In this document: piece after piece, positions 5,011-55,543 of the stretch | Numbering within the stretch: the first letter of the stretch is position 1 | How the letters are laid out: every line of letters starts with the position of its first letter | Source: a virus | Length of the DNA stretch: 64,000 nucleotides | Reading direction: 5' to 3' (one strand) | IMG/VR virus record: IMGVR_UViG_3300028920_000027 | Location: 32,001-96,000 of that record | Notes under the pieces: generated by a model | Database searches by the model: none | Seen by the model: the letters and a program-made list of their open reading frames with translations, nothing else | Told to the model about the DNA's origin: nothing | Program-made: the position numbers and the translations under genes

Positions 5011-8000
5011 CGCACTCTCCTAAGTCGGCTGGTCACGCGAGAAACGCTGCGGTGTTGGATGGATCGCCGCGTCTGATAGGTCCTAGTGGAGGCACCCGTT
5101 GAAGCATGGGGACGGTAGACTCCGCCGGTCGAAGTGACGGTCTTCTGATTCAGCATGGCTTCGGTACTCAGCCATACCGCGCGCACGAAAGCATCCGCCA
5201 TGTCATCGTGGGCTCCGGCCTTCTGAGGGGCTTCGACCAAGACAATGTTCTTGCTCACTACCCGGCGCTGAAGACTCAAAAGTTCAGCAATGAAGGGGGA
5301 ATGCTTCACGGCGCCGTGCTCCGGAATCGGCCAGTCGTAGAGCACAAGACGCTCGTCGTACATCATCATCTTTGCGTTCTGATAGATCTTCGAGGTCATG
5401 TCGCGGGTGAAGAACTCGCTACGGAACTGCCTCAGCCCTCGCTTAACGAGCGATTGCTCCAAAGGGATGCCGTTCCAACGGTCGAACATCCCCGCGGTGG
5501 TGTGGAACCGTCGGCACAAGGCCACCACCCAATCGCTGATGGCATCGAAGTCGAGACGAGCCTCATCCTCCAACGTCTTGGCGTAGACGATCGGGTACTC
5601 TTCCCCCAAGTGGGGGTTGGTCTTACGCCAATTCTGCCCTGCGTACCAAGCTTCATGGTAGTCGAGCACGATGCGATCATTGTCGACGTGCGTGATGAAA
5701 ACCGACGTACCATCGCCCGCAAGACCGACGTCAATACCCATTTGGTGAGGCATCTTGGGGCGAGCCCGCATGACGGGGCGCCCCGCGGAGACAATGCACG
5801 CCTGGAGATCTTCAGCACGCTCCACCCACCCTTGAGCCTGATCGCTGAACTGGGCCCCATGTTCGGTGACAAACGTGGTCGGATCCGCGTGGTACTTCTG
5901 CTTGTAGTAGCTTGGGGGGACCGTCGGGTTGATTTCCCAAGTCGGCGCCTGAATGGCCAGGAGGTTCTCACTACCCTCACCCCCGTGCATCGCGAGGTCA
6001 AACAGCTCGAAAAACTTGCCACTGCGGCCCAGCGGGCTGGAGATGAGAATGATGCGTGATTCGACGGGGGCCCGCTCCCCTGTCACCTGGTCGACTATTG
6101 GAAGGCCGTTACGAGGGTCCTTGCGCGAGAACGCAGCCGTGGACGGAGTTACCGCGTCATAGATCTCCTTCGCCGAGCTAAGGCCCTTGTCCTTGAAGTG
6201 GGCCACTTCGTCGAGGATGACGACAACGTTACCCGAACCACGAAGGCCCTTGGCAATACATGACTTGAAGGTGACCCTCAACGTTGCCTTACCGTTGAGG
6301 GTCGTGAACTTGCCCGCGTCGGTCCGCAGCGTGGGCCCGAACTTGTCGATGTCGTAGGGCGTGCGGAAGTTGACGTGGCTCAAAGTATTGTTGCCAATGT
6401 AGGGTTGGAAGTAGTCACACTTGGCAACATGTGTCGTCACTTCATTGTAGAGCAAAGACGCCTGGTCCTTGTCGGTCGCGACGCTGATGATCTGGATGCG
6501 GTTGCCGTTCGGCAAACCGTAGTACTCCTGGGGGTTGTGCAAGTTGAGTAGGCGGTAGACTTCGTAGCTGGCGAAGATGCCAGAGAGTGTCGTGTTGTGG
6601 TTGGTGAGGCCGTTTGCCACGAACGATGCACCCTCAGGAACGGTCAAGTCATATACTTGGTGCTCTCCTACAGCCAACTCCGCGACGGGATCGTAGAAAT
6701 AGTCAAGCTCCAGAAGATGTTCGAAATGTGCTCGTTCCTTCGCCGCGACACCAAGCTCTGAAGCTACCGCCAGAGCCTTCTTGAGGCGTGGGTAGGACAG
6801 TTTCTCCTCAGACCCTGGCTTACAGGAGTTTCCAAACGCCTGTCTCAGACGACTACGCCCCCACCCTTTCTCACCACGTGCCGGATTACGCTTGGGCACA
6901 GCTTCCAAGAGATTCCTGACGTGCCTATACTGATGAGGTAGGCTTTCTGTGTCGGACTTGCCCTCCTGAGCCGTCTCCAGAGCCGCCAACAAGGGGGCTT
7001 GCTTCTTCTCTGAATCAAAGCCTATGTGCTTGGCAAACAACTGCCGGGACCGAACACCCTTCAGACTGAGGTTGGCGTAGTGCCGTCGGGTCTTCTTGCT
7101 CCACTTCTTCGCGACGTTGGAGACGATGCCTAGGTTGAGCAGCAAAGTTTGAACGTCAGAGGCCAAGTCGAAGCTCGCCGTTGAGAGCGTAATGTAACAC
7201 CCCCCACCCTCAGCAGAACCGTCTGTTTCGAAGAGGCCTCGAAGAAACGCGCAGACCACTCTCTTAGGGGACCTGAAGATTGCCCAAGGGACTCTCTTAC
7301 CGTAGCGCCCCAGATCGTGGGACCAGCCGAGGTCATGAAGGAACTGACGTGCTCCCACACCGGGGAACTCTAGTCGCCCTGTGTTCTGAGTGCGCTTGTC
7401 CATCTGGACGCGCCAAGACCCAAAAAGGCGCTCAAATAGGGCCTTCAGATAGGACCAGATCTCGTCGTGCTCGACAGTGACAGCAACGCCTTGGGTGTGC
7501 CCCCAAGATCCATCACCCACGAGATACCCCAATAGATTCCCCCAGGACTCGTCGAGGGTATCCGGAAATTGAACGTCTTTGCACCCACGGTCGTTATGGA
7601 AGGGCCGCACATCGAGCGGTTCTGAAGCCCACAAGTCGGTGCCCCGATGCACTGCTAGGAAGTCACCGAGCTGAAGCTCGTCCAGATAACGCCAGGCTAC
7701 GACCCCATCCGAAGTCATGACCTTCACTCGATGGTTGCCTGTACCCGTGATGGCGTACCCAGAAGCGGTCCGTGCCGTCACGGTTGGTTTCACGCCCCCA
7801 TTATAAAAATGAGATGAGCGTGCCTTGACGGTTCCTTCCTGGGCGACACCAACATCAAGTTCGCTGAATTCTTCCTCAGGAGCCCCCCCAAGAGCTTCGA
7901 TAGGGAAAAGACCCTTGTCCGTGAGGATCAGGGTGCCTCCTTCAACGCACTTTCCCGCACGCCTCCCAATGGGTAGAATCAGCTCGCGGCGCGGGTGGTC

Positions 8001-8351
8001 CTGCTCCCCAATATTGCACCGACCCTCATTGTACAAGTAGCGCAGGTACTCGACCTCGGTGAACTCGTAGAGGACCTTGGTGTTGAACATGTCCGTGACC
8101 CGGATGCGGCGATCCGGGTCTTCGGGCAGCTCGCCATCAAGCTCCAGGTAATAGTAGAGCTTGACGATGAACCGTTGCGCGGGGAATAGGCGCATCCCCA
8201 AGCCCCACGGGGACTCAATGTAGTCGAGAATGGTACAGGTCTGAGCGCGGCCATCTTCCTCGACTTGACCCGCTGCCTTCTGCTCTTCCTTGACCTGCTG
8301 ACCAGCTTTTCTGACCAGCTCAGAGAGGTCGGGCCCCCTGGATGCTGCCAA
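5007..8351 (-). CDS. terL: Terminase large subunit with intein
   Basis: Walker A GRRAGK|TT split by an intein, Walker B VVILDEVAH, RuvC-like nuclease GIDVG...D and HDDMADA. Confidence 0.92.
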   Translation of the reverse strand: MAASRGPDLSELVRKAGQQVKEEQKAAGQVEEDGRAQTCTILDYIESPWGLGMRLFPAQRFIVKLYYYLELDGELPEDPDRRIRVTDMFNTKVLYEFTEVEYLRYLYNEGRCNIGEQDHPRRELILPIGRRAGKCVEGGTLILTDKGLFPIEALGGAPEEEFSELDVGVAQEGTVKARSSHFYNGGVKPTVTARTASGYAITGTGNHRVKVMTSDGVVAWRYLDELQLGDFLAVHRGTDLWASEPLDVRPFHNDRGCKDVQFPDTLDESWGNLLGYLVGDGSWGHTQGVAVTVEHDEIWSYLKALFERLFGSWRVQMDKRTQNTGRLEFPGVGARQFLHDLGWSHDLGRYGKRVPWAIFRSPKRVVCAFLRGLFETDGSAEGGGCYITLSTASFDLASDVQTLLLNLGIVSNVAKKWSKKTRRHYANLSLKGVRSRQLFAKHIGFDSEKKQAPLLAALETAQEGKSDTESLPHQYRHVRNLLEAVPKRNPARGEKGWGRSRLRQAFGNSCKPGSEEKLSYPRLKKALAVASELGVAAKERAHFEHLLELDYFYDPVAELAVGEHQVYDLTVPEGASFVANGLTNHNTTLSGIFASYEVYRLLNLHNPQEYYGLPNGNRIQIISVATDKDQASLLYNEVTTHVAKCDYFQPYIGNNTLSHVNFRTPYDIDKFGPTLRTDAGKFTTLNGKATLRVTFKSCIAKGLRGSGNVVVILDEVAHFKDKGLSSAKEIYDAVTPSTAAFSRKDPRNGLPIVDQVTGERAPVESRIILISSPLGRSGKFFELFDLAMHGGEGSENLLAIQAPTWEINPTVPPSYYKQKYHADPTTFVTEHGAQFSDQAQGWVERAEDLQACIVSAGRPVMRARPKMPHQMGIDVGLAGDGTSVFITHVDNDRIVLDYHEAWYAGQNWRKTNPHLGEEYPIVYAKTLEDEARLDFDAISDWVVALCRRFHTTAGMFDRWNGIPLEQSLVKRGLRQFRSEFFTRDMTSKIYQNAKMMMYDERLVLYDWPIPEHGAVKHSPFIAELLSLQRRVVSKNIVLVEAPQKAGAHDDMADAFVRAVWLSTEAMLNQKTVTSTGGVYRPHASTGASTRTYQTRRSIQHRSVSRVTSRLRRVR
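6594..7949 (-). mobile_element. Intein with LAGLIDADG homing endonuclease in TerL (452 aa)
   Basis: Starts CVEGGTLILT, ends NGLTNHN followed by +1 Thr; LAGLIDADG helices LLGYLVGDGS and FLRGLFETDGS. Confidence 0.93.
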
Positions 8352-12929: not shown

Positions 12930-13835
12930 TCACTGGGTGATAGTCAAGCGGATGGTGACCTCTTCATAGTTGGACTCACTGTAACCGCTGACCCTCAAGG
13001 TTTCCTCGTAGGTCCCCACAACCATGCCAGCATCAGGTGCAACGTTGACGGTGACCATATCGGACGCACCCGAATTCAAGGAACCCGCGACAGGACCGAA
13101 GGACTTGAGCCACTCAATCGAACACCCCACACGCTGAATCTGGTAGTTTAGAACGGAGCCCGCGGGCCCTGTGTTCTCGACCGAGAAGCTCTGGGTGGGG
13201 GTGAGGGGGAAATCCCCAGTGAGAGGCTTGGCGGCCGTAAAGTTGAGGATCAATGGGGTCAGCGTAATAGCCGACTTGGGTCGGATGACGATGGTAACCG
13301 GAACTGTCTGGGGAGAGTTGTCTGCGTTGGGATCACTGATGGTGATGACTTCCACCATAGGACTATCCACCGCCAGCAGGTTGGTGGAGTTGACTGTCGC
13401 CTCAAACGAGCCCGCCTGGTTGAAAGCGAGACCCACGAGCTGCACAGGGTCAGTCTTCACGTAGTCCGCGCTCGTCGCAAGAGCGGCGCTCAGCTGCGAT
13501 CCGTAGACGCCGCCGTTGGTGACCACCACCGTCTGCGGATCGCTGAACCCACGGCCCTCGTCGACCTCGAACGTGAGGGATGTTGGCGGGCCCACCAGGA
13601 TGCTCGCCGGGAAATTGGCGCGGATCTCGGAGATACTGGTCGCCATGGCCTCAATCACACCACCAGGGATCGGCACCGAGTCACGCAGGATGCCATAGGG
13701 ACCGACGACGTCGAGGATACGAAAAACCGCCACCGCACCCGAGATGTCGTACTGAGTGGTCCACTTCCACCGCCCAGTCTGCGTGTCGAGCTGGAACTCG
13801 TAGTTTTGGGACTGGAGATTCGAGGCTAGAGTCAT
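12930..13835 (-). CDS. Ig-like (BACON-type) two-domain structural protein
   Basis: Beta-strand patterns with V.N.G..GS.L, .G.Y.ETL.VS and SPQTVPVTIVI; start refined to ATG 13835. Confidence 0.65.
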   Translation of the reverse strand: MTLASNLQSQNYEFQLDTQTGRWKWTTQYDISGAVAVFRILDVVGPYGILRDSVPIPGGVIEAMATSISEIRANFPASILVGPPTSLTFEVDEGRGFSDPQTVVVTNGGVYGSQLSAALATSADYVKTDPVQLVGLAFNQAGSFEATVNSTNLLAVDSPMVEVITISDPNADNSPQTVPVTIVIRPKSAITLTPLILNFTAAKPLTGDFPLTPTQSFSVENTGPAGSVLNYQIQRVGCSIEWLKSFGPVAGSLNSGASDMVTVNVAPDAGMVVGTYEETLRVSGYSESNYEEVTIRLTITQ

Positions 13836-13959
13836 CCACCGGAGACGGGGCATAAAAGGAAACCCTAGTCTCATCGGGAACCTACGCCCAGTTCGACCCC
13901 AAACTCCTTGGCAACGGTCGCCCCTTCAAACCACGCCGACCGCAAAACCCCAAATTAAG

Positions 13960-14165
13960 AGGGGTAAAGGAGGGCCTATGACCCCCTTTGACCTAGCGAC
14001 CTTCGTCGCGCCCATCGTCATCCGCCTCAGGCGGTGGCGGGGCCTAAAGCGACGATAAGGTCGGACGGAAGGGGTTTACCCTCCCGTCGCCATTACCCGC
14101 CAAAACGCTGGCGATTGATGTGGGCAGAAGATGCCCACACACAGTTCGCGGGCCACCCCTCGCGG
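13960..14165. ncRNA. Non-coding multi-hairpin element (candidate ncRNA, origin or regulatory RNA)
   Basis: About six consecutive inverted repeats, e.g. gaccttcgtcgc (13998) with gcgacgataaggtc (14049) enclosing ccgcctcaggcgg; gacggaaggg/ccctcccgtc; gtgggca/tgcccac. Confidence 0.4.
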
Positions 14166-14202
14166 CGGCACTCCTCGCACTTGCCGCAGGAATAGTGCCC
14201 CC

Positions 14203-14550
14203 TCAAGCCACGCCGGGTGAACTTGAACTTCGGGTCAGGCTTATGAAGTCGCCTACCCACTCGGGGTGGATCTTGACACCGTGCCCGCCCCAGTCAGGAT
14301 AGTTGCTGCTCTTGAGGTTGAGGCAGCGGTCTTTCATAGCAAGCCAAACGTTGTGCTCGGGTGTGTGGCTCATACCGTGCTTGAAGTTGGTACGGTGCCC
14401 CCTGCGTACGGGGCGCAGATCGACACCCTGACCCCACTTGCTCTGGGCCCGTTGGTTGTTGTTCTGCTCGAGTACCGTTGCCCAGCGCACGTTTCCGGGC
14501 TCGTAGTTGCCGTTGACGTCCTTGCGGTCAAAAACACTCATCTCCCCCAC
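14203..14550 (-). pseudogene. HNH homing-endonuclease remnant with domain halves in reversed order
   Basis: DRKDVNGNYEPGNVRWATVLEQNNN (C-half motif) precedes HGMSHTPEHNVWLAMKDRC...W (N-half motif), then truncates. Confidence 0.65.
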
Positions 14551-15280
14551 GCCCGCTCCATTGGGGCAATTTCACCTCGCGAAGAATGTTAAAGCGCTTC
14601 ATCCGTATAGTACTGAAAATCTGTTCATACGGCTTGAGGGTCTCGTCGTCGGAGGCCATTTCGGTCAGCCTGTCCACAGCCTTGAAGAACCTGTGCCTAA
14701 CTCGGCCCTGGGTAAGGCACAAGCGCTTGGCGACCTCGCTCTGGCAAGTCGTCGCCCACATCCCGACAAGGATTTCAACGTCCACCTGTATGGTCCCAAC
14801 ACCCCGACAAATGGGACAGTCCTCACCCTTGCAGCCCTGGGGGCAGTGGACCTGGCTGGGGAACACCCTAGCCAGGTCCCGTCGCATCTCTTCCTCAGCC
14901 ACCTGAGGGATGCTCAAGAGGAACTTGATGCGCTTGATCCCACGGTCGAGCCGATAACTAATGGCCGCCTGTGTCACCCCGAAAATGGTGGCAATATCAG
15001 CCTGGCGCTTCCCGTGGACGAAATAGAGGTAGATAAGGTCGGCTTCTCGTTCAGGAATGCGTTCGAGCAACGGGGCGACCCGGGCCTCGTAGTCTTCGGT
15101 CGCCGAAAATAACTCTGCGATGTCTTCAGGGTCGACAGGATTACCTTCGTCGTCAAAGACATACTCTGGGTCCTCGTCGTCATTGGCAGCCTCTTCATCC
15201 CATGGGTGAACTACATCTATCGGATTGCTGAATCGTTGGGCCAATTCATGGGGGTCCACTGGAATGATGTATGCTGCCAT
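14528..15280 (-). CDS. Sigma-70 region-4-like transcription factor with second HTH and Cys insert
   Basis: LLERIPEREADLIYLYFVHGKRQADIATIFGVTQAAISYRL (sigma4 HTH), HCPQGCKGEDCPIC, and CQSEVAKRLCLTQGRVRHRF. Confidence 0.75.
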   Translation of the reverse strand: MAAYIIPVDPHELAQRFSNPIDVVHPWDEEAANDDEDPEYVFDDEGNPVDPEDIAELFSATEDYEARVAPLLERIPEREADLIYLYFVHGKRQADIATIFGVTQAAISYRLDRGIKRIKFLLSIPQVAEEEMRRDLARVFPSQVHCPQGCKGEDCPICRGVGTIQVDVEILVGMWATTCQSEVAKRLCLTQGRVRHRFFKAVDRLTEMASDDETLKPYEQIFSTIRMKRFNILREVKLPQWSGRGGDECF

Positions 15281-17117
15281 TCTCGATCCTCGGCCCCAAC
15301 AGGGCATCCAGAATGGGGTCGGGGTTGACCCCAATCTCCCGCAGTCGGGAGGCAATACGATCTACATCTTCATCTGGGTTTGTGAGAAAGACAGTAACGT
15401 TTTGAAGGGTCATCAACTCGACGTTGAGAGTCACCTGCGGCTTAGCAGTTTGAAGCTGCTCGTACTGCCGCCCGGAGAGCCCGGCCAACCCCGACTTGAA
15501 AACCCCCTCCACGGTCCCGTGTGTCCGGACAAGATCCCTGAGGACTTTCTTTGGTACTCTGGCAACTCCTGGGATCTCATCGGACGTATCTCCGCAAAGA
15601 GCCCTAAGCTGTACCATTGAACTTGGAAGTACCCCAAACAGTTTCTCAACATCGGCCGGAGAGGTGAACTCCAACTCCTTCCGACCCCCAACTGCTGGCT
15701 GCAAAACATGGGTCGTCAGGGTCACCAACTGAAGCAGGTCGTTGTCGGTGGAGAAGACGACGTTGACCTGACCCTTCAGATGATCGCGCGTCAGGGTTGC
15801 AATAACATCATCGGCCTCGGCCTCCGGATTGATGCCCTGATAGACCCCCAGAGCCGGAAGGATCTCCATCAAATAGTCGATCTGGTTGAAGCCCCTGTCA
15901 GAACTGGAAAATTTTGACATCCTCGATTGACGCTTTGCCTTATACCCCGGAAAAGCGTCCTTCCGGCTCTGGGACGACCCCGGAGCGTCCCAGGCGACAT
16001 ACAGCCGCGCGTTGGGGTACCGCTTGCGTAGAGAACCTAACCCTCGCAAAAAACCGAAGATCACGCCCGTCGGGCGTCCCAACTCATCGGTCAAGTCCTT
16101 CAAATTGGGTGCGTGTAGGCACCTGTAGGCCAAGTTCATCCCATCCACGATGACGTTCTGAGTCACATCGCCTCCATCCAGTTGTGCAACCTGCTGAGCC
16201 AGCCGATCGCAAGCGTCCACAAGCCGTTGGAATCTTTCCAGGACCCCCTGCATCCACGCCAACTCCACGATGACGTTCTCGATACCTGCCACCTTCCGAC
16301 CCAAGAAGTCTGTCTGATAGAAGGTTACAAACGACCACAATCTGCGACCCTTAACTACCCACTCTCCCAGCTGCTCGAACTCCGCCATGCTACTGTTGCA
16401 GTGCACAACGAGGGCGTCAGATGCGTTCGCGACTAGCGACCAAAGACGGCAACCCCGAAACTGCCAGTCAGCGAACCGCGAGTAATCCCCCCACGCCTCC
16501 TTCAACGGCAACAGGGGCTGGTCCTCCCAGGTCAGGTAGGGTCGCGCGTGCATCAGCCATTCGCGCAACCGCGAGACGTGGTGTGCCATGGGAGACCCAG
16601 GAGCACGCTCGATGACCTTCAGGAAGGTTCGCGGCAACGTAAGCAGACTTTGCTTACTCCGTAATTGAACGTAAACCTGAACCTTTCCCTGCTCAGGAAT
16701 GTCGGCGACGACTTGTGCCGGAATCGACTGATAGGGGCCTTTGACGATCTCCACAGTGTCGCCAATACAAATCCCCTGGTCGGCCTCGATGCGTACCTGA
16801 CGCTTCAGACGCTCGACATCTGCATCGGTCACGGTCGACAAGCGACGATCTTTCCCATTACCCTCCGCCAAAAGGCTCTGCACGTAACGGGAACCTTCGA
16901 GCTTGAGGTAGGCCGCGTCCTCGTGGTCGCGGCGCACGAAAGCGTACCCGTCCATCAAGTAGCGAACGACCCGGTCCTCCCCAATCTGGGTGATGCTCGC
17001 AGGAATGAATACCTCCCCCTCCCCCCCAATAACTCGTAGGATGGACTTCGAGATCTCGTCAGGATCCTCAGACTCCCCGCGCAGGCTAAGCTCCAGAACT
17101 ACCCAATCAGTTGGCAT
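15246..17117 (-). CDS. NusG/RfaH-like (NGN+KOW) domain fused to PolA-type 5'-3' exonuclease
   Basis: DWVVLEL...VFIP...LMDGYAFV (NGN) and IGDTVEIVKGPY (KOW); VIVDGMNLAYR, VAWD, EADDVIATL, STDNDL, GDTSDEIPGV (5'-3' exonuclease); start refined to ATG 17117. Confidence 0.8.
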   Translation of the reverse strand: MPTDWVVLELSLRGESEDPDEISKSILRVIGGEGEVFIPASITQIGEDRVVRYLMDGYAFVRRDHEDAAYLKLEGSRYVQSLLAEGNGKDRRLSTVTDADVERLKRQVRIEADQGICIGDTVEIVKGPYQSIPAQVVADIPEQGKVQVYVQLRSKQSLLTLPRTFLKVIERAPGSPMAHHVSRLREWLMHARPYLTWEDQPLLPLKEAWGDYSRFADWQFRGCRLWSLVANASDALVVHCNSSMAEFEQLGEWVVKGRRLWSFVTFYQTDFLGRKVAGIENVIVELAWMQGVLERFQRLVDACDRLAQQVAQLDGGDVTQNVIVDGMNLAYRCLHAPNLKDLTDELGRPTGVIFGFLRGLGSLRKRYPNARLYVAWDAPGSSQSRKDAFPGYKAKRQSRMSKFSSSDRGFNQIDYLMEILPALGVYQGINPEAEADDVIATLTRDHLKGQVNVVFSTDNDLLQLVTLTTHVLQPAVGGRKELEFTSPADVEKLFGVLPSSMVQLRALCGDTSDEIPGVARVPKKVLRDLVRTHGTVEGVFKSGLAGLSGRQYEQLQTAKPQVTLNVELMTLQNVTVFLTNPDEDVDRIASRLREIGVNPDPILDALLGPRIENGSIHHSSGPP

Positions 17118-19881
17118 CGCTCCTCGGGCTGGAAGTACGGACCAAGTACGCCTGGTGAGCGCGCCGCCACTCGGTGGGAGGGAGGAGTCGAAGCCCGCCG
17201 GGGACGCTCTGACGAGGAATCTCAACCTGGGGTGGCGGTTTCCGCTCATGACCCCGAGGTCGTTGGTGAGGCACTCCTTGCTCATCCAACGTCGTCAACG
17301 CCGCAAAGTCATTGCTCCCAAGTGAACCGATCCCATCTGGGCGACCGTGGGCCGGCATGGCAAGCGGCGGTGGAGGCTTGGGGGACTCCTGCTCTGGAGC
17401 CTCGCTCTCCACCTCCGCAGACGCCACAGGAGCAGAAATGGGGGCTGTGGCCTCCACTGGGGAAGGAGGTAATGCCAGAGGGGCTACAACTTGAAGGACC
17501 ATGGGCTGTGAGGGCACGACCGCTGTTTGAGGTATGCCACCACCCCCGGAAAGTGCAACGACGTCACACACCAACCCTGCCTTGGTCACGTGACGCACAC
17601 GCAAAAAGTACTCAGCCAGCTTCGTTACATTGTCCTTGAAAAGACTATACACCTGTTTGGCGAGACCCCGATCCATCAAACTGAAAGGCGCATGCATCTT
17701 GTAGGCGAGCCGATAGCTATTCATGGCCGCCTCGGCGAGGCCCGCGGCAACGTCGTCAGGGTCCAGAGTACCGCATAAATCGTCTACGATCCTGGCAGCC
17801 TCCCCAGGTTGACCCAGAGACAGGAGCACCTTGTAGTACTGAGTGACAGCATCGAGCCTGAGGTATGTTCGAGCCGACTCCAAGGATACAGGTCCAAGCT
17901 GGGCGATCATTTCGAGCTTGTTCAAGATGTCTCGAACATGGCCCTGCGAATGATCGATGACCACCAACAGGGCGTCATCCTCGTACTCAACCTTTTCAGC
18001 CTCCAAGATCTTCCTGAGCCTGACCTGGACATCATCGCGCGTGATGGGGCGCATAATGTGCTCCTCGCACCGTGACCGGATCGTGGAGCGGATCTTGTTG
18101 CCTTCGGTGGTGCAGAGGATGGCAACGAACCTCTTGTCTTCAATGGGCTTGAGCAGTACGTCCTGCGAGTCGCGGCTCATGCGGTGCATTTCGTCAAAAA
18201 CAATGACGCGCTTGGCGGCCCCCGGGACGTTAAACGCCAACTCATCGACGATGCGTCGAACGTTATCGATGGTGCCCGAGCTAGCGGCGTCCAACTCCTT
18301 GTAGGCCACCGAGGCTTCAGTCAACTGGGCTTGGCAGTTGTCGCAGCTGTTACAGGGCTCGCTCCCCCCTTGAAGGTCTTGGCAGAGCAGTGCCCGGGCC
18401 AGGATGCGAGCCAGGGTCGTGTTGTGGTTCATGAACCCCCCAGCTGCAAACATCTCTTGTCCAGGGACCGAAAGGTCAAACACTTCTGCCCGGCCCGGAG
18501 ATGTTTCGATTACCGGATCGAAGTAGTACCCTGTATCCAGCAAGTGCTTGAAGTGGGCATACCCAGGGCACCCTTTGAACTCGCTGACAATGCGCTGGAC
18601 CTGGCGATCCGTACACGACACACGCCCCCTCCGTGCCTGGAAGAAGTGGCTGGTGTCATGAGTCCGCAACTCAGAAGAAAGGCTCTCATAGAAGAAACGT
18701 AGGTGGGCCGCTTGGTAGGGCACCACTTCGTAAGTATTGGATAGTTGACGGCGACCCTTAGCGTGTCCACGAACGAGAGACCGTTGTAGCTGGCCCCGCT
18801 TTCGAGCCGAAAGAAAACCTACCTTGGACGCGAACACGTCGAGGGATGAGCGCCGAATACCGACCCTCCAGTAGACCCCGTACTCCGGATGGGGCTTGGG
18901 GCGCCGATAGGCCACCACCCCTAAATTCAACAACATCGCCTGCACCTGACGAGCGAGCTTAGGGCTCTTGGTGAGGGCCTCTACTCGGTACCCCGAGACG
19001 CTACCGTCACACTCAAAGTAACCTCGCAGAAACTCGCAAACGAGATGCTCAGGGGAGACCCTGATGGACCATGGCATTTCCTTCCCGCCAGCCTTCGCAT
19101 AGGAAACCCCGAGGAATGCCAGAAAATCCCTGAACTGAACACTGCTGCATCGAACCGCAACGAGACCTGGGCGCCGTTTGTCTGGTGAAATGAAACTCCC
19201 CCCGCCCAGGCGGTCTAAAAGACGCCTGGCATCATCCACGGTATCAGGCTCAGCTGTATGGACCGAGACACTTGTCCTACTCGTGCATGAACCGTCCCCT
19301 GCCAGATAGCCCAGCAACCGTGCCCACTCCAAGCTCAGGGTAGTCGGGGGGTTGAAGTCATGGCTGCTATGGTCATGGGGTCGTTTCGCGTAGGAGTAAC
19401 CCTCAATCAAAGGCCCTGTGCCAAAAAGTCCTGTCCCTCGCGAAAGGCACGCATAATCACCTTTGCGCACTTGACCTATCTCCCTCCACTCAATCTCACC
19501 CGATTTAGCCAGGATCTTGATGCGATGGTGGGGGGTCCCTTCGATGAAGAAGCCCAAACTAGTCTTGATGCGAACTGTGTCCCGGACCCCACCTCGATAC
19601 GAGAAAGCTGCCTCACCCACCCCCTGTTCTTGCCCAACGACAATATGCACAGGGTCGACGACATGGGGCCCACCCATAAGGTCTCCTATTTCGAGCAAAC
19701 CACGGTTCGTAGGGACCAAGGTCTCCTTAGACACACACTTCCCACGCCCGTGCCCGCCCGAGAAGATGTAGCTCGTGTCCAGGGCAGTCCCATTCTTCAA
19801 GCGCTGCTTGAGCACCTGGACAGGGCCCTCCTGCCCTAGCACGTCACCAAAAACGCGAGGTCGATACTTGATATCCCACAC
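17107..19881 (-). CDS. dnaX: DNA polymerase III gamma/tau clamp-loader subunit with intein
   Basis: KYRPRVFGDVLGQ, Walker A GRGK|TT, EPCNSCDNC Zn motif, FDEMHRM, LLKPIE, TIRSRC. Confidence 0.93.
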   Translation of the reverse strand: MWDIKYRPRVFGDVLGQEGPVQVLKQRLKNGTALDTSYIFSGGHGRGKCVSKETLVPTNRGLLEIGDLMGGPHVVDPVHIVVGQEQGVGEAAFSYRGGVRDTVRIKTSLGFFIEGTPHHRIKILAKSGEIEWREIGQVRKGDYACLSRGTGLFGTGPLIEGYSYAKRPHDHSSHDFNPPTTLSLEWARLLGYLAGDGSCTSRTSVSVHTAEPDTVDDARRLLDRLGGGSFISPDKRRPGLVAVRCSSVQFRDFLAFLGVSYAKAGGKEMPWSIRVSPEHLVCEFLRGYFECDGSVSGYRVEALTKSPKLARQVQAMLLNLGVVAYRRPKPHPEYGVYWRVGIRRSSLDVFASKVGFLSARKRGQLQRSLVRGHAKGRRQLSNTYEVVPYQAAHLRFFYESLSSELRTHDTSHFFQARRGRVSCTDRQVQRIVSEFKGCPGYAHFKHLLDTGYYFDPVIETSPGRAEVFDLSVPGQEMFAAGGFMNHNTTLARILARALLCQDLQGGSEPCNSCDNCQAQLTEASVAYKELDAASSGTIDNVRRIVDELAFNVPGAAKRVIVFDEMHRMSRDSQDVLLKPIEDKRFVAILCTTEGNKIRSTIRSRCEEHIMRPITRDDVQVRLRKILEAEKVEYEDDALLVVIDHSQGHVRDILNKLEMIAQLGPVSLESARTYLRLDAVTQYYKVLLSLGQPGEAARIVDDLCGTLDPDDVAAGLAEAAMNSYRLAYKMHAPFSLMDRGLAKQVYSLFKDNVTKLAEYFLRVRHVTKAGLVCDVVALSGGGGIPQTAVVPSQPMVLQVVAPLALPPSPVEATAPISAPVASAEVESEAPEQESPKPPPPLAMPAHGRPDGIGSLGSNDFAALTTLDEQGVPHQRPRGHERKPPPQVEIPRQSVPGGLRLLPPTEWRRAHQAYLVRTSSPRSDAN
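18421..19737 (-). mobile_element. Intein with LAGLIDADG endonuclease in DnaX (439 aa)
   Basis: Starts CVSKETLVPT, ends GGFMNHN followed by +1 Thr; LLGYLAGDGS and FLRGYFECDGS. Confidence 0.93.
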
Positions 19882-19895
19882 AGGCCGACCTCTGG

Positions 19896-20396
19896 TTACT
19901 CGGTCAAGGTTAAGAGATCATTGATCTTGACATCTTCAGCTGAGGTCTCTTCCTCGATGATCTCTTCTATTTGGATGGCCTTGGCTACATTGACGAACCC
20001 TTCGAGGCCCGGATGCCACGCACCATACCGTTCCAGAATCGTGGCGAACTCGCTAACGTCGGGTTCGCGAGTGCTCCACTTCATTTCCCCGGATTTCTCG
20101 TCTTCCTGACCACAGCACCGTTCCAATAAATGATCGACTAGTGCCGTCCGTTGGTCGGCGTCCAATTCGTTCCAGCTGTCAAGGCCAACTTCGATGATGA
20201 AGGTCTTATTCGTGAGCCAGGTCAAGAAGGGGCTGCACTTCTTGACCGTGCCCAGAATGGTCTTACCATTCCTGACGCTGGACTTGTCGACGAACACCCA
20301 CAGGATGGCCGCATCGGCCAACTCCGCGTGGTAGTTTGCAATCAGATTACTCGCGATCTGTCCCATCGCGTCACCGGGTTCATAGGTCTTCATCAA
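19896..20396 (-). CDS. Phage metallopeptidase-like fold with degenerate HExxH
   Basis: FIIEVGLDSWNELDADQRTALVDHLLERC...REPDVSEFATILERYGAW resembles the family pattern. Confidence 0.65.
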   Translation of the reverse strand: MMKTYEPGDAMGQIASNLIANYHAELADAAILWVFVDKSSVRNGKTILGTVKKCSPFLTWLTNKTFIIEVGLDSWNELDADQRTALVDHLLERCCGQEDEKSGEMKWSTREPDVSEFATILERYGAWHPGLEGFVNVAKAIQIEEIIEEETSAEDVKINDLLTLTE

Positions 20397-21104
20397 TCAC
20401 ACCACTAGGTTGGGGTCCAATCCTTCCATGAATACACCAAATCGCTCATCTCCCCAAGCTTCCCAAAGATCTCCCCAGTCCTTGGACAGCTTACTCTCTC
20501 CCTCAGGCGCAGCCATGGGTACGGCAGGGGGTAGGGCCACTTCGATACGCTCGAACTCGTCTTGGTGATCCCGACGGAAGGCGTAGGCTACCTTGCGACC
20601 CGTCTCGTCGTTGTCGTAGCCGATCCACACCTGATCGACCATTCGGTGCAAAATCCTGAGTAAATCAGGGGAAATCCCTGCCTTAAGCGTAGCCACCACC
20701 TCAGGGTAGGTCCGTTGGACCGGGCACAGGTCGAACACCCCCTCGACCAACCAGATCCGGTTGCTCTGCCAGATGTGTGGCATGGCCTGATGTAGCCCGA
20801 AGAGGACCGCCTCGTCCCCTTCAAGTAAGTAGTCCATGTAGCCCTTGCGGACGATGGGGCGGAACTGAATGCCCTTGACTTGCCCTACCGAGTTCGTCAA
20901 CGGGAAAACCCAGACCCGGTTCAGGCGGTGCTTCTCAGCCCACCTGGCAAACCCAGGCGGCAAGCCCTCAGGCATCTCGTCCAGGTAGCCAACGTGGTAA
21001 AAGTCAATCTGCTCATCGGTCATGCCCCGACGCCACAAGCGGAAACGAAGGTCCTCGTCGAGCTGTTGCTCGGCGTGCTGCACCAGGCCGTCAATCCAGG
21101 TCAT
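20397..21104 (-). CDS. dnaG: DnaG-type primase core (TOPRIM), no N-terminal zinc-binding domain
   Basis: WVFPLTNSVGQVKGIQFR, LFGLHQA, LVEGVFD and GYDND (DxD). Confidence 0.8.
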   Translation of the reverse strand: MTWIDGLVQHAEQQLDEDLRFRLWRRGMTDEQIDFYHVGYLDEMPEGLPPGFARWAEKHRLNRVWVFPLTNSVGQVKGIQFRPIVRKGYMDYLLEGDEAVLFGLHQAMPHIWQSNRIWLVEGVFDLCPVQRTYPEVVATLKAGISPDLLRILHRMVDQVWIGYDNDETGRKVAYAFRRDHQDEFERIEVALPPAVPMAAPEGESKLSKDWGDLWEAWGDERFGVFMEGLDPNLVV

Positions 21105-24467: not shown

Positions 24468-25367
24468 TTACACCGCGCCATGCGGCGCTGCACGGCGCCG
24501 CGCCTCCAATTTTTTGACAACGGCCGCTCCTCGAGGGCACAGGTCCTGAGTGGCGAACGTGCAAAAACGACAATTCTGCTGACTAGGCTTCGGTTTGAAG
24601 GTCTTTTTCACCTGCTCGATGCCCTGCCCATCAGTCTCTTCGAGCCAAGCTGCTGTCTGAGCGATGATGCCCATCACCTTGGCCTTGAAAGCGTCCAACT
24701 TACCCTCGTCGAAGTCCAACCACATGAGGGCGTCCTGAGGCGAAAACCTCCACAGGAAGTATCCCAACTTGTCAGGGGCTTTGCCGAAACGCTCTCGGTG
24801 CAGTACGCCGTACCACAACAGCTGGTCCCAATCGAGGTAGCGGACTGCACGCTTCTTGGAGCCCTTACCGTCCAAGATCACCTTATCGCACAGGGGCTTG
24901 GCCCGCCGAATCATGAAGTCGACGCGACCCCCCAACTTGTGCCCGTCTACCTCGGAATCGAGCTTGATCTCGGCCCGCGCCATGGGGCCCAGCAGTCGGT
25001 GAAACCGGATGGCACCGAGCGCCCGAGGGACCGTATCTCGAACGTCAGCCTCCAGCTCCTCTCGTGAAGCGTAGTTACTGCCCTCCCCATCGAACTCGAT
25101 GTAACGACCCTTCTTGTTTGACTCTTCGTCGATCACCCGCTGCACGGTCTCATCGACCAAGTCCATGACGAGCTTACGGGGCTTGGGATCTCGCGAGCGC
25201 CACAGCTCTCTCTCGTAGAAATCCTCGATGAGCGACGACACAATGGACCCATAGAGCGTGTTGACGGCGTTCTCCTCCTTCCCCAGATCTGGCTGGCCCA
25301 CATAGGCAAACCAGTAGCGAAGGGCACAGTCCCGGAGGTACTTGTAACCGGAGTAAGAGAGGTACAT
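24468..25367 (-). CDS. PD-(D/E)XK (RecB/Cas4-like) nuclease
   Basis: LSYSGYKYLRDC..RYW, GRVDF, ILDGKGS, QLLWY, C-terminal CRFC...C. Confidence 0.85.
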   Translation of the reverse strand: MYLSYSGYKYLRDCALRYWFAYVGQPDLGKEENAVNTLYGSIVSSLIEDFYERELWRSRDPKPRKLVMDLVDETVQRVIDEESNKKGRYIEFDGEGSNYASREELEADVRDTVPRALGAIRFHRLLGPMARAEIKLDSEVDGHKLGGRVDFMIRRAKPLCDKVILDGKGSKKRAVRYLDWDQLLWYGVLHRERFGKAPDKLGYFLWRFSPQDALMWLDFDEGKLDAFKAKVMGIIAQTAAWLEETDGQGIEQVKKTFKPKPSQQNCRFCTFATQDLCPRGAAVVKKLEARRRAAPHGAV

Positions 25368-27434
25368 CTACTTCTTCCTCGCGCGGGCACGCTCTAGATA
25401 CTCCAGAATCAAGCTGGAGACTTCCTGACTCACGTCCAGCGACCCGATGTTGTCCTCCAGGGACGCCGATGTGTCCAAATCCTGCTGCTGTCGCAGCGAC
25501 CGCGCAAACTCCTCGATGACCTCCTGACGCTGCTCCTGCCGATCTTTCTTCTCCAGGTCGAACACCTCACTGGCAGGGGGTACCCGCAGGGGGACCTCTT
25601 GGGCGCTGATCCCGCTGAAGTTCGTCTGGAGGATCGCAACCTTAGGGACCCGAGTCAGATTCTCCTTAACCAGAGCGCCACGACTGAGAGCGCCCAGGTT
25701 GACGAAGGTCTTCCCGCCAACCTTCACGATCCCCTGGTCGATGTGCCAATGCCCAAAGCAGTTGTGTACCAGCAAACCCCCAGCAACGTACTGCTCTGAA
25801 CTGGTTCGGAAGTTGTGGACGGGCCCCTTGTAGGCGACGTCGCATATTTCAGTGATCCTTGCATAATACAAGCCCTCATGGAAGAAGCCGGACACACGGG
25901 TTTTCTGACGCTCTGGGGGCCTAATCCCCATGCGAGAGGCTAACTCGCAACCAGAGTCCCCATAGAAGGCCACAATGTGGCAGGGGTGGTTCTGGTGCTG
26001 TTTAGGAGGACACACTTGGAAGCAGGGGCGCCAGCCCACAGACAGAGCCAGGAAGAACAATTGGAAAGCCAGTTTCCGAGAAGCTGTAGCCCCCGCAACC
26101 TCTACCTTGGTCGACCTGGCATGCCCATCCCCCAACAGCCAGCCAAGCAGAAGCTCCTTACGATCAATAGTCGGACGTTCCCATACCCAAGCAGAGACCT
26201 CTTTTTGGTCTGAATAGCGGCCGCCGTGCTCTTTGAAAAAGGCGGTGATGTTGAGACCGTAGGCGCACAGTTGGATGCAGTTGGGGTTATCTGGGTGCGC
26301 GTGCTCATGAACGGTCAAACCGAAGTGACGCTTCACAAGAGTCTTGACGTCGAGGTGTAAGGCATGTTCGAGAATATGAAAACTCCAGCCAACACCGGCT
26401 ACAGGGGCGCCCTTGCGATTGTTGATCAAGTGCCCCTCAGCAAGATAATAACCTAGTAGTCGAGACAGTCCTGCATACGAACGAGCCTCCGTGGGAACTG
26501 AAGGAACGGGCACCCCCAAGTAGTCACCCTTAACAAGGCTTCCTGCGGCGCACCAAGTGGGCTCCACGAAAGGCTTGTCAGTGCAACTACTACAGGGCGC
26601 TGATGAGGCCGTCTTATCTGGGTAACAACGGCGATTAACCTTGGCGGCCCAGAAGGGGTGTTCTGACGTAACACCTTCAACGAGCGGAGGTAGCCCCTCG
26701 ACCTCGAAATGGATCAGAGGCTCATTCACTTGCCTTGGGGGGTGGACAGCCTCCACCACGGTCGACTTTGAGCCCGCCATGTGCTGGCCGACCTGCACGT
26801 CCTCAATGGGGATAGGTCGGTATAAGGCGTCCAGTACAGGTGTCTGTGGGGGAAAGCACCAGGCATCAGGGCCCCCTTCATAGACGAGATCCCTGTATCG
26901 GAAAACTGGCTCCCCAAAAAACTCCTCAACGCGGGTAGGCGGATTCTCAGCAGCAAGCTGGTGGACGATGGCTACCAAGTGCTCCCCGTCCTTCTTGTGT
27001 GCCTGCCGCAGCTCGTCGAGGGTACGGTTGGGGGCGTAGGGAAACCCCACCACGCGTACGCATTCGGGCCCCTCCCCAAACGTCACGTCCCGCAACTTCT
27101 TGAACACCCCCGCCTCGTAGAGGACGCCGATGGGTTGCCTATCCACAGTGTCGAGGTTGTTATGGGCCATGTCGTGGTTGCCCTCGACATGGTACACCGG
27201 ACAAGGATAACCAGCGTGTAGAGACGCCGTACGCGCTACCAAGGCGTGTGAATTGCGAGTGGCCGCCTTGACGTGGAAGTAGTCACCCCCATCGAGCACC
27301 GCCTCGACCGCTTGCTCTTCCGCGATGTGACCCACCTGAGTCAGCAGGTCCCACACCTCTGCCTGGTAGTCGCCCTTCCAACTCAAGGGGGAGCGATCTG
27401 ATACATGGCAATCGGTGCGGAACAGCAGCTTCAT
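25368..27434 (-). CDS. sbcD: Mre11/SbcD-like metallophosphoesterase nuclease with intein
   Basis: TDCH, GGDYFH, GNHD, VHQ, GHWH motifs; intein sits just before GHWH. Confidence 0.88.
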   Translation of the reverse strand: MKLLFRTDCHVSDRSPLSWKGDYQAEVWDLLTQVGHIAEEQAVEAVLDGGDYFHVKAATRNSHALVARTASLHAGYPCPVYHVEGNHDMAHNNLDTVDRQPIGVLYEAGVFKKLRDVTFGEGPECVRVVGFPYAPNRTLDELRQAHKKDGEHLVAIVHQLAAENPPTRVEEFFGEPVFRYRDLVYEGGPDAWCFPPQTPVLDALYRPIPIEDVQVGQHMAGSKSTVVEAVHPPRQVNEPLIHFEVEGLPPLVEGVTSEHPFWAAKVNRRCYPDKTASSAPCSSCTDKPFVEPTWCAAGSLVKGDYLGVPVPSVPTEARSYAGLSRLLGYYLAEGHLINNRKGAPVAGVGWSFHILEHALHLDVKTLVKRHFGLTVHEHAHPDNPNCIQLCAYGLNITAFFKEHGGRYSDQKEVSAWVWERPTIDRKELLLGWLLGDGHARSTKVEVAGATASRKLAFQLFFLALSVGWRPCFQVCPPKQHQNHPCHIVAFYGDSGCELASRMGIRPPERQKTRVSGFFHEGLYYARITEICDVAYKGPVHNFRTSSEQYVAGGLLVHNCFGHWHIDQGIVKVGGKTFVNLGALSRGALVKENLTRVPKVAILQTNFSGISAQEVPLRVPPASEVFDLEKKDRQEQRQEVIEEFARSLRQQQDLDTSASLEDNIGSLDVSQEVSSLILEYLERARARKK
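25761..26858 (-). mobile_element. Intein with LAGLIDADG endonuclease in Mre11/SbcD (366 aa)
   Basis: Starts CFPPQTPV, ends GGLLVHN followed by +1 Cys; LLGYYLAEGH and LLLGWLLGDGH. Confidence 0.92.
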
Positions 27435-30177: not shown

Positions 30178-30179
30178 GT

Positions 30180-31720: not shown

Positions 31721-31821
31721 GATTCAATCTCCTAACGGTCGCCTAGTGCCCACGGTGCGTTTTCTCTGGCTTGCTTGCGGGTGGACCCAGAACGAACAAC
31801 TGACTCTACACCACGGAATGG

Positions 31822-37716: not shown

Positions 37717-37759
37717 CGCCGGACTATACACCGACTAGGAGGCTGGGTCCCTTCCAGGA

Positions 37760-55131: not shown

Positions 55132-55168
55132 AAGGGGAAAGACAGGACAGATTCTCTGGAGTGGAAAT

Positions 55169-55239: not shown

Positions 55240-55241
55240 AA

Positions 55242-55452: not shown

Positions 55453-55455
55453 AAA

Positions 55456-55539: not shown

Positions 55540-55543
55540 AGGT

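What the first reader, a model, noticed from the sequence alone, without database searches (positions are those of the whole stretch)
15246..17117. NusG/RfaH-like elongation factor fused to a 5'-3' exonuclease
One uninterrupted frame contains NGN and KOW domains, a ~170-aa Trp-rich helical linker with an internal repeat (WQFRGCRLWSLV / WVVKGRRLWSFV), and a complete PolA/T5-type 5'-3' exonuclease. Established: NusG paralogs bind elongating RNAP, and 5'-3' exonucleases remove primers and flaps. I know of no such fusion. Inference: an RNAP-tethered nuclease, which could couple late transcription to DNA processing, resolve R-loops, or degrade host DNA. Caveat: GGAGG-N4-GTG directly precedes the nuclease domain (about 16165), with a TGA overlapping it in another frame. 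The nuclease may therefore also be made alone, or the fusion may be recent.
Basis: partly seen in the sequence, partly recalled or inferred. Interest (0 to 1): 0.72.

Follow-up and report, generated by a model that had tools for sequence, protein, structure and literature searches.

The report
Huge-phage NusG-like factor fused to flap nuclease
An uncultured huge phage joins a copy of NusG, the factor that rides on RNA polymerase, to its only DNA flap nuclease in one protein; many relatives do the same, so this points to an undescribed, testable physical link between phage transcription and DNA replication.

Summary
Window 15246-17117 (minus strand) is one 623-aa frame with four parts: a NusG-type NGN domain, a KOW domain, a Trp-rich helical linker with a significant 35-aa internal repeat, and a catalytically intact Pol I/T5-type 5' flap nuclease (FEN).

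It is not a recent or artefactual fusion. More than 150 full-length relatives at 40-50% identity carry it, on phage contigs of up to 549 kb.

- The order DnaX-like clamp loader, NusG-like, FEN, double sigma-region-4 protein is kept in every locus I fetched that reaches far enough to show it. In a more distant clade NusG-like and FEN are separate neighbouring genes without a linker.
- Inside the fused clade the gene has split again at least five times, always at the junction, with GGAG and a start codon in front of the nuclease. The fused genes keep that internal start (here GGAGG-N4-GTG), so free nuclease is probably made too.
- The nuclease ends in conserved short motifs that resemble sliding-clamp-binding motifs.

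Related genomes have a family-A DNA polymerase but no other 5' nuclease, and I found no phage RNA polymerase in them.

RNA polymerase binding and the purpose of the tether are inferred, not shown. This scan found the same family earlier on at least ten other genomes. I found no paper that describes it.

The parts
15246..17117 (-). Whole gene: 623-aa NusG-like / helical linker / FEN protein (P0001), stop codon included
   Evidence: Uninterrupted frame. More than 120 full-length homologues at 97% coverage. AF2 pLDDT 89.8.
16782..17117 (-). NGN domain, aa 1-112, with the family's GY(A/V)FV strand at aa 57-61
   Evidence: VIA match to RfaH NGN on the elongation complex (8pen_P): Z 10.2, rmsd 2.9 A over 97 aa. 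HMM alignment to Thermotoga NusG. Coordinates.
16608..16778 (-). KOW domain, aa 114-170, predicted as a beta-barrel
   Evidence: VIA match to Thermotoga NusG KOW: Z 10.6, rmsd 1.2 A over 56 aa. I116, D120, G127 and Y129 are invariant in A2.
16167..16604 (-). Helical, Trp-rich linker, aa 172-317. Sequence is poorly conserved and length varies among relatives.
   Evidence: Helices 176-195, 202-230, 234-268 and 271-313. The linker HMM hits twice in L004, L005, L087 and L091, which indicates extra repeat units. Structure look-alikes are only generic helix bundles.
16431..16466 (-). Linker repeat copy 1 (WQFRGCRLWSLV, aa 218-229)
   Evidence: Self-alignment scores 50 against 23.8 +/- 3.6 in shuffles; 0 of 200 reach it.
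16326..16361 (-). Linker repeat copy 2 (WVVKGRRLWSFV, aa 253-264), 35 aa after copy 1
   Evidence: The W...G..L(W/F) pattern recurs in homologues.
16164..16175 (-). Internal ribosome-binding site GGAGG (16175..16171), 4 nt, then GTG (16166..16164, codon 318); TGA in the +1 frame at 16165..16163
   Evidence: Sequence. Anti-SD duplex -9.3 kcal/mol, and the feature is enriched across fused loci. Split alleles use the same position, with GTGA or ATGA overlaps.
15249..16166 (-). Predicted free nuclease product from GTG318 (306 aa)
   Evidence: Inferred from the conserved internal start and from stand-alone FEN genes of 289-310 aa in split relatives.
15393..16154 (-). FEN / 5'-3' exonuclease domain, aa 322-575. 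Acidic active-site residues and the arch motif YKAKR (aa 392-396) are intact.
   Evidence: Pfam. D325, R385, Y392 and D437 are invariant. D377, K393, R396, E433, E434, D436, D458, D460, D510 and D513 are kept in at least 90% of 71 sequences. Foldseek match to M. smegmatis FenA 6c33: E 2.4e-18, TM 0.75.
15297..15314 (-). C-terminal short motif ILDALL (aa 602-607). The family consensus is P..IL..FFG, which is PIP-box or clamp-binding-motif-like.
   Evidence: A hydrophobic-hydrophobic-x-x-FF motif lies in the last 45 aa of 92 of 157 fused proteins (127 of 157 with a relaxed pattern) and almost nowhere else in them. Unfused-clade FENs end in SLF (9 of 11). A binding role is inferred.
17107..19881 (-). 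Upstream neighbour: DnaX-like clamp-loader ATPase interrupted by an intein with a LAGLIDADG domain. Its stop overlaps the start of the NusG-FEN gene.
   Evidence: Pfam. A DnaX-like gene lies directly upstream in 31 of the 33 fetched loci that hold the NusG-like domain (34 with the window); in the other two (L092, L151) it lies within about 300 nt of the contig end.
14528..15280 (-). Downstream neighbour: 250-aa protein with two sigma-70 region-4 helix-turn-helix domains. Its start overlaps the last 35 nt of the NusG-FEN gene.
   Evidence: Pfam Sigma70_r4, 2 stretches. Present directly downstream in every locus with room for it. 60-68% identical among fused-clade relatives.

Best explanation
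The gene encodes a two-function protein of a huge phage that appears to transcribe with the host RNA polymerase.

The N-terminal NGN-KOW module is a divergent NusG paralogue. Like every studied member of that family, it most likely sits on the beta-prime clamp helices of the elongating polymerase. A helical-repeat spacer of about 145 aa then holds the phage's only 5' flap nuclease near that polymerase.

The same mRNA probably also yields free nuclease from the internal GGAGG-N4-GTG start. That free form would serve ordinary Okazaki-fragment and primer removal alongside the phage's family-A DNA polymerase, which has no 5' nuclease domain.

The tethered form would act where transcription meets replicating DNA. 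The most likely targets are RNA-DNA hybrids, RNA primers and 5' flaps next to the polymerase.

The gene works within a conserved, translationally coupled block: clamp loader, NusG-like, FEN, double sigma-4 protein. This block lies at the border between the replication genes and the late genes.

Shown: the domain identities, an intact active site, conservation of the fusion, the gene order, the internal start signal and the natural split alleles. Inferred: RNA polymerase binding, production of two proteins, and the substrate of the tethered form.
For: Domains.

Conservation of the fusion:
- More than 120 full-length hits at 40-50% identity on contigs up to 549 kb.
- 165 proteins that hold both the NusG-like and the FEN domain among those fetched, 157 of them at least 560 aa.
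- 15 fused loci at DNA level.

Gene order:
- In a distant clade, NusG-like and FEN are adjacent separate genes.
- DnaX-like lies upstream and the double sigma-4 gene downstream in every locus that reaches far enough to show them.
- The window's three genes overlap by 11 and 35 nt.

Two products:
- The internal start is enriched: 8 of 15 loci have SD plus start against 12% expected, P about 1e-4.
- Verified split alleles start the FEN at that place, each behind GGAG.

Replication role of the nuclease:
- One PF02739 hit per genome, including a 529-kb record rated 100% complete.
- Family-A polymerase is present there.

Host polymerase use:
- No Rpb2-type or T7-type RNA polymerase was found.
- Sigma-type genes sit next door.
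- In another phage type the same NusG-like module is fused to, or overlaps, a sigma-70-like gene.

Established knowledge: NusG-family NGN domains bind the beta-prime clamp helices (abstract of PMC2995049 for NTD binding to beta-prime; the clamp-helix site is from my own knowledge).
Against: - No binding to RNA polymerase has been shown, and the host is unknown.
- Curated NusG models are matched only below their cut-offs.
- The gene split again at least five times in evolution, so a covalent tether is not essential.
- Divergent phage multisubunit RNA polymerases can escape Pfam, so 'uses host polymerase' is not proven.
- The window's own record is only about 38% complete, so a second nuclease in this particular genome is not excluded.
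- The internal-start statistic is not corrected for shared ancestry, and its threshold was chosen after seeing the data.
- Read support across the junction could not be checked.
Confidence: 0.5

Rival explanations
1. It is a replication-coupled activator of late transcription, analogous to T4 gp55/gp33/gp45 and Mu MuC. The nuclease end, with its clamp-binding-like tail, docks on nicks, flaps or a sliding clamp left on replicated DNA. The NGN end holds RNA polymerase at the site that sigma region 2 and gp55 use. The neighbouring double sigma-4 protein supplies the flap-tip and promoter contacts. Late genes would then fire only on replicating DNA.
For: - The block of clamp loader, NusG-like, FEN and double sigma-4 gene is kept in every locus that reaches far enough, and it lies between the replication and structural genes.
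- Conserved C-terminal short motifs: SLF at the very end in 9 of 11 unfused FENs, matching the core of QL[SD]LF (consensus quoted in PMC12867686). A hydrophobic..FF motif occurs in 92-127 of 157 fused proteins.
- Precedents: the T4 clamp activates late transcription through gp33 on the beta flap and gp55 (PMC7892883; PMC2988020). Mu MuC needs the host clamp (PMC12867686).
- The sigma-4 protein is more conserved than NusG-FEN.
Against: - Pfam found no sliding-clamp gene in three related records.
- The motifs are short, and the window's own copy is degenerate (ILDALL).
- Known NusG-family proteins act on elongation complexes, not in promoter opening.
- A clamp-binding tail is expected on any replicative FEN and need not concern transcription.
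Confidence: 0.2
2. Two independent functions happen to share a frame. The NusG-like part is an antiterminator for the long late operons, and the FEN is the replication nuclease. They were neighbours in an operon and became joined without any need for physical coupling.
For: - In the distant clade they are separate neighbours.
- At least five independent re-splits are tolerated.
- A conserved internal start lets the nuclease be made alone.
- Phage modules often keep their gene order without the proteins touching.
Against: - The fused state is kept in the large majority across lineages only 40-50% identical.
- A structured spacer of about 145 aa, with repeats and variable copy number, was built between the two parts. 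The NusG half keeps it even after splitting, which suggests the spacer does something.
Confidence: 0.2
3. It is a polymerase-riding attack nuclease: either a 5'-3' 'torpedo' that degrades nascent RNA to end transcription, or a device that degrades host DNA during transcription.
For: Only the architecture supports this. A 5'-3' nuclease is tethered next to the RNA exit channel and the upstream DNA of the polymerase.
Against: - The domain is a standard Pol I-type flap nuclease with the arch and acidic residues of replication FENs.
- It is the only such nuclease in related genomes, and their polymerase has no such domain, so it is needed for replication.
- It sits in the replication module.
- Nothing targets it to host DNA.
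Confidence: 0.05
4. The single frame is an assembly or sequencing artefact, and the phage really has two genes.
For: - Split alleles exist in nature, and the junction differs from them only by reading phase.
- Reads could not be inspected.
Against: - The window's frame aligns with fused relatives through the whole linker, up to the junction.
- Fused genes were assembled independently in more than 150 samples.
Confidence: 0.02

Closest known systems
Specialised NusG paralogues (RfaH, LoaP, UpxY, ActX/TaA) and housekeeping NusG/Spt5
   Same: It has an NGN domain followed by a KOW beta-barrel. The NGN matches RfaH on the elongation complex at Z 10.2, and the KOW matches NusG at Z 10.6. Weak but consistent hits to NusG, LoaP and UpxY models. 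It is encoded by a mobile element next to the genes it may control, as specialised paralogues are.
   Different: - It carries a helical-repeat extension of about 145 aa and a complete nuclease after the KOW domain. I found no described paralogue that carries an enzyme.
- Scores are below every curated cut-off.
- The KOW is predicted as a beta-barrel, not the RfaH-type helical hairpin.
- The recruitment signal and the KOW partner are unknown.
Stand-alone bacterial and phage flap endonucleases (M. smegmatis FenA, T5 D15, E. coli ExoIX/Xni, T4 RNase H) and the 5' nuclease domain of DNA polymerase I
   Same: Same two Pfam domains, fold, acidic residues and arch motif. As in T5 and T4, it is encoded apart from a polymerase that has no such domain.
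   Different: In Pol I this domain is joined to the DNA polymerase. Here it is joined to a factor that binds RNA polymerase. A conserved hydrophobic tail motif follows the domain.
T4 late-transcription complex (gp55, gp33, sliding clamp gp45) and Mu MuC with the host beta clamp
   Same: These are phage systems that make late transcription depend on replication proteins. The components bind the beta-prime clamp helices and the beta flap and carry short clamp-binding tails (PMC7892883, PMC2988020, PMC12867686). Here a clamp-helix binder by homology, a double sigma-4 protein, a clamp loader and clamp-motif-like tails are encoded together.
   Different: There is no sequence relation to gp55, gp33 or MuC. 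No clamp gene was found. A catalytic nuclease is part of the chain. The likeness is in logic only and is untested.

Membership tests
NusG/Spt5 family | NGN domain fold | tested here: met
   Model aa 2-111 against RfaH NGN (8pen_P): Z 10.2, rmsd 2.9 A over 97 aa. It also matches the NusG NGN of 6vz7 and 1nz8. The Foldseek top 12 are all NusG/RfaH/Spt5 chains, and so are nearly all of the rest of the list.
NusG/Spt5 family | KOW beta-barrel after the NGN | tested here: met
   Model aa 114-169 against Thermotoga NusG KOW: Z 10.6, rmsd 1.2 A over 56 aa. The KOW glycines are invariant.
NusG/Spt5 family | Score above the curated family cut-offs (Pfam PF02357, TIGR00922) | tested here: not met
   TIGR00922 gives 27.4 bits against a cut-off of 135.7. 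PF02357 gives 14.6 bits against 22.2. Homology is nonetheless significant: E 5.3e-9 with the family profile against the PDB. I therefore file it as a divergent NusG-family paralogue, not as an equivalog.
NusG/Spt5 family | Binds the RNA polymerase beta-prime clamp helices and modifies elongation | not testable with these tools
   This needs a pull-down, in vitro transcription or cryo-EM. The host polymerase is unknown.
RfaH-type specialised paralogue | C-terminal domain folds as an alpha-hairpin that masks the NGN until recruitment at an ops-like site | tested here: inconclusive
   Both AF2 models give a beta-barrel KOW. A prediction cannot exclude fold switching. I did not search for an ops-like element.
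Pol I / T5-type 5'-3' exonuclease (FEN; PF02739 + PF01367) | Both Pfam domains above their cut-offs | tested here: met
   102.3 bits against 34.3, and 44.5 bits against 40.
Pol I / T5-type 5'-3' exonuclease (FEN; PF02739 + PF01367) | Metal-binding carboxylates and the Tyr/Lys/Arg residues of the helical arch | tested here: met
   D325, D437, R385 and Y392 are invariant. D377, E433, E434, D436, D458, D460, D510, D513, K393 and R396 are kept in at least 90% of 71 sequences.
Pol I / T5-type 5'-3' exonuclease (FEN; PF02739 + PF01367) | FEN fold | tested here: met
   Foldseek match to M. smegmatis FenA 6c33: E 2.4e-18, TM 0.75. T5 D15, ExoIX and Taq Pol I also match.
Pol I / T5-type 5'-3' exonuclease (FEN; PF02739 + PF01367) | Structure-specific 5' nuclease activity | not testable with these tools
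   This needs an enzyme assay.
DNA polymerase I | Polymerase (family A) domain in the same protein | tested here: not met
   NCBIfam PRK05755 matches only its positions 4-244 of 889, at 156.6 bits against a cut-off of 720. In relatives the family-A polymerase is a separate gene far away.
Clamp-coupled late transcription (T4 / Mu type) | Clamp-binding motif on a polymerase-bound factor | tested here: inconclusive
   Conserved tail motifs are present and resemble QL[SD]LF or a PIP box. Binding is untested, and the window's copy is degenerate.
Clamp-coupled late transcription (T4 / Mu type) | A sliding clamp available to the system | tested here: inconclusive
   No PF00712 or PF02768 hit in G000, G001 or G002. 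The host clamp or a divergent phage clamp is not excluded.

The most novel reading that the evidence does not exclude
The block of clamp loader, NusG-FEN and double sigma-4 protein is a new kind of replication-coupled late-transcription switch. The flap nuclease, or a clamp bound to its tail, marks freshly replicated, nicked DNA. The NusG-like end brings RNA polymerase to it, taking the place that sigma region 2 or T4 gp55 occupies. The double sigma-4 protein completes a split sigma-like factor.
Probability: 0.2. Interest if true: 0.85.

Novelty: new variant of a known kind. Interest (0 to 1): 0.62.

Why it matters
NusG/Spt5 is the only transcription factor shared by all cellular life. Its known paralogues work by recruiting partners through the KOW domain, and I found none described that carries an enzyme.

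Here a large, diverse group of huge phages hard-wires their sole replication flap nuclease to such a factor, and keeps it beside a clamp loader and a sigma-like protein.

If the N-terminus does ride on RNA polymerase, this would be a direct protein bridge between the transcription and replication machineries. It would be a handle on how genomes of about half a megabase handle R-loops, primers and collisions between the two machineries, or how they time late genes to replication.

The family also offers a natural experiment. Fused, split and never-fused versions all sit in the same gene context.

Tried and rejected
- Complex prediction of the whole protein with the neighbouring double sigma-4 protein gave no verdict (score 0.10, mark 0.32). 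I do not use it either way.
- The search of GenBank phages (INPHARED, tblastn) found nuclease-only matches. No record covers 80% of the protein, so no cultured phage with the fusion is known from that set.
- IMG/VR gave only 5 full-length loci. Most of the DNA evidence came from the metagenome scan.
- Linker fold: the Atlas structure search gave only generic helix bundles (HepT-like, HisKA-like; TM about 0.5) and no feature hit. The VIA wide list was filled by NGN and KOW matches, so the linker remains effectively untested.
- The sigma-70-type promoter and terminator scan of 13800-20500 found fewer sites than shuffles do. There is no sign of an internal promoter before the nuclease.
- The Pfam searches for a beta clamp (PF00712, PF02768), Pol III alpha, family-B polymerase, an Rpb2-type RNA polymerase subunit and a T7-type RNA polymerase found nothing in G000, G001 or G002. 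The T7-type model rang in no control genome either, so that blank says little.
- Five literature searches combining NusG with exonuclease, flap endonuclease, huge or jumbo phage, or fusion found no description.
- Assembly artefact and recent fusion were considered and rejected (see the rival explanations).
Full report
**What is there**

On the minus strand, 17117..15246 is one open frame of 623 codons. Its ATG follows GAGGAG and overlaps the stop of the upstream gene by 11 nt. The downstream gene starts 35 nt before its stop.

Pfam places the two domains of a Pol I/T5-type 5'-3' exonuclease at aa 322-494 and 497-573, both above their cut-offs.

The first 170 residues match NusG models weakly: TIGR00922 at E 2.5e-6, LoaP and UpxY more weakly still, and a PHROG 'transcription antiterminator' at 8e-6. 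All are below the curated cut-offs. Other evidence settles the homology:
- phmmer against the PDB finds Thermotoga NusG at 4.8e-6, and a profile of the family reaches 5.3e-9.
- The alignment covers the family's GY(V/A)FV strand and the KOW motif.
- An exhaustive search of 1.8 billion representatives with aa 1-321 gives 282 hits. Many are stand-alone proteins of 165-190 aa that themselves touch the Pfam NusG or KOW models.

**Structure**

AlphaFold2 with 71 relatives gives pLDDT 89.8 for the whole protein and 85.9 for aa 1-318.
- The nuclease part matches M. smegmatis FenA (E 2.4e-18, TM 0.75), T5 D15, ExoIX and Taq Pol I.
- The NGN part matches RfaH bound to the elongation complex (Z 10.2, rmsd 2.9 A over 97 aa). 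The KOW part matches the NusG KOW (Z 10.6, rmsd 1.2 A over 56 aa).
- Between them lie four long helices (aa 176-313).
Self-alignment of the linker scores 50, against 23.8 +/- 3.6 for shuffles, and none of 200 reaches it.
- Relatives have extra copies of this unit. Apart from the repeat pattern the linker sequence is poorly conserved. Structure look-alikes are only generic helix bundles.

In the nuclease, every acidic metal ligand and the arch residues Y392, K393 and R396 are invariant or nearly so across 71 sequences. It should be active.

**The element**

The window is part of an IMG/VR virus record of 182 kb rated 38% complete. It carries 33 tRNA genes and a replication and recombination module on the same strand: a Toprim protein, RecA, SbcCD-like genes, a PD-(D/E)XK nuclease, a RecD2-like helicase and an NAD ligase. 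It is a huge phage.

**Is the fusion real and old?**

Yes.
- The word-indexed search returned more than 120 proteins covering 97% of the query at 40-50% identity, on contigs up to 549 kb. One source names some of them '5'-3' exonuclease/transcription antitermination factor NusG'.
- Of all the proteins I fetched, 165 hold both domains.
- At DNA level, 15 loci besides the window are fused.
- Among one genome each of 185,579 prokaryote species, only one contig carries the fusion, a 127-kb contig binned as a Lysinibacter MAG. All other hits are nuclease-only.
- No GenBank phage record has it.

**Split and never-fused relatives**

Some close relatives encode NusG-plus-linker and FEN as two genes in exactly the same context.
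- I confirmed this for four of them: P0131, P0137, P0139 and P0171. P0139 lies on four contigs from different sources, one of 463 kb.
- Their junctions all differ: GTGA, ATGA, TAG-N3-TTG, and a TTG lying before a TAG. Each has GGAG 5-8 nt before the nuclease start.
- On a tree of the NusG domain these split forms are scattered among fused ones. Well-supported branches force at least five changes, and fused forms sit at the base of the linker-bearing clade. That tree used a quick search, and some short proteins may be cut by contig ends.
- A more distant clade has a 170-aa NusG-like gene with no linker, directly before or overlapping a stand-alone FEN of about 300 aa.

The likely history is neighbours first, then a linker and fusion, then repeated re-splitting.

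**Internal start**

In the window, GGAGG, 4 nt and GTG (codon 318) precede the first strand of the nuclease. The TGA that serves as the stop in split alleles is there too, but out of phase.
- Across 15 fused loci, 14 have ATG, GTG or TTG within nine codons before the nuclease, against 47% for random nine-codon windows in the same genes.
- Eight of the 15 also have an anti-SD duplex of -4.5 kcal/mol or better, against 12% expected. Simulation gives P about 1e-4.
- The test ignores shared ancestry, and its threshold was set after looking at the data.

Together with the split alleles, this makes production of a free 306-aa nuclease likely.

**Conserved neighbours**

The order DnaX-like clamp loader, NusG-like, FEN, then a 200-290-aa protein with two sigma-70 region-4 domains holds in every locus with room for it, whether fused or not. 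The sigma-4 protein is 60-68% identical among fused-clade relatives, which is more conserved than NusG-FEN itself.

In another kind of phage contig the same NusG-like module is fused to the C-terminus of a sigma-70-like protein (P0181), or overlaps a sigma-like gene (P0175). This ties the module to transcription initiation factors a second time.

**Genome-wide context**

Three related records, one of 529 kb rated complete, each have a single 5'-nuclease hit, which is this gene. Two of them, including the complete one, also have a family-A DNA polymerase elsewhere. No Rpb2-type RNA polymerase subunit was found. The T7-type model found nothing either, but it also rang in no control genome. The nuclease is therefore the replication FEN, and the phage probably transcribes with the host polymerase plus its own sigma-like proteins.

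**C-terminal motifs**

After the nuclease domain the family has a conserved P..IL..FFG motif. It occurs in the last 45 aa of 92 of 157 fused proteins, or 127 of 157 with a relaxed pattern, and virtually nowhere else in them. In the window it reads ILDALL. 21 of 157 also end in GFxK.

Nine of eleven FENs of the unfused clade end in SLF followed by zero to five residues. That is the core of the bacterial clamp-binding consensus QL[SD]LF, as quoted in PMC12867686. Clamp binding is my inference. Pfam found no clamp gene.

**Mechanism**

The best-supported reading is a NusG-family module that rides on RNA polymerase and carries the phage's flap nuclease, with free nuclease also made from the internal start. 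I put this at 0.5.

What the tether is for is open:
- My first choice is removal of RNA-DNA hybrids, primers or flaps where transcription and replication share a template.
- A rival that I rate 0.2 is a T4- or Mu-like switch that makes late transcription depend on replicated DNA (PMC7892883, PMC2988020, PMC12867686). It fits the clamp loader, the tail motifs and the sigma-4 partner.
- A neutral fusion of two operon neighbours is also rated 0.2. It fits the repeated splits, but not the long-maintained structured spacer, which the NusG half keeps even after splitting.
- A torpedo or host-DNA-degrading role is rated 0.05, and an artefact 0.02.

**Novelty**

Five literature searches found no description. 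This scan had already met the family on at least ten other genomes, with the same reading. I re-tested here its claims about the sole nuclease, the sigma-4 neighbour, the internal start and the fused-or-neighbouring pattern.

- the clamp loader as a fixed upstream neighbour;
- the count of independent splits and their different junctions;
- the tail motifs;
- the sigma-to-NusG-like fusion in another phage type;
- the near absence of the fusion from cellular genomes.

Noticed in passing
window 17107-19881 (-) and 5007-8351 (-): Two large genes are each interrupted by an intein with a LAGLIDADG homing-endonuclease domain. One is the DnaX-like clamp loader. The other is a 1114-aa ORF whose host protein Pfam did not name; a first-stage note calls it TerL.
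   Followed up: partly
window 55044-62934 (-): A cluster of 33 tRNA genes covering most amino acids, typical of huge phages.
   Followed up: no
L248:3612-5237 (P0181); L249:3425-5657: In a different phage type (contigs with Ku and a SNF2-like helicase), the same NusG-like module is fused to the C-terminus of a sigma-70 (r2 + r4) protein. In a sister contig it is a separate gene overlapping a sigma-like gene.
   Followed up: partly
window 14528-15280 (-), about aa 140-165 of the product: The double sigma-4 protein of the window, L083, L084 and L085 has a Cys-rich insert (C..C ... C..C, zinc-ribbon-like) between its two helix-turn-helix domains. Other relatives do not have it.
   Followed up: no
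L168:3001-4782: The only full-length fused homologue among 185,579 species genomes lies on a 127-kb contig binned as 'MAG: Lysinibacter sp.'. It is probably a mis-binned huge-phage contig, or a hint at an actinobacterial host.
   Followed up: no
P0137, P0147, P0154 (split NusG + tail proteins): Some split alleles replaced the end of the linker with a Lys/Arg-rich tail of 60-70 aa. In the one whose context I fetched (P0137), the NusG-tail gene overlaps the nuclease gene by 44 nt instead of 4.
   Followed up: no
window 24468-37731 (-): A recombination and repair module lies upstream on the same strand: a PD-(D/E)XK nuclease, an SbcD-like phosphoesterase with an SbcC-like ATPase, RecA, a RecD2-like helicase and an NAD-dependent ligase.
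   Followed up: no
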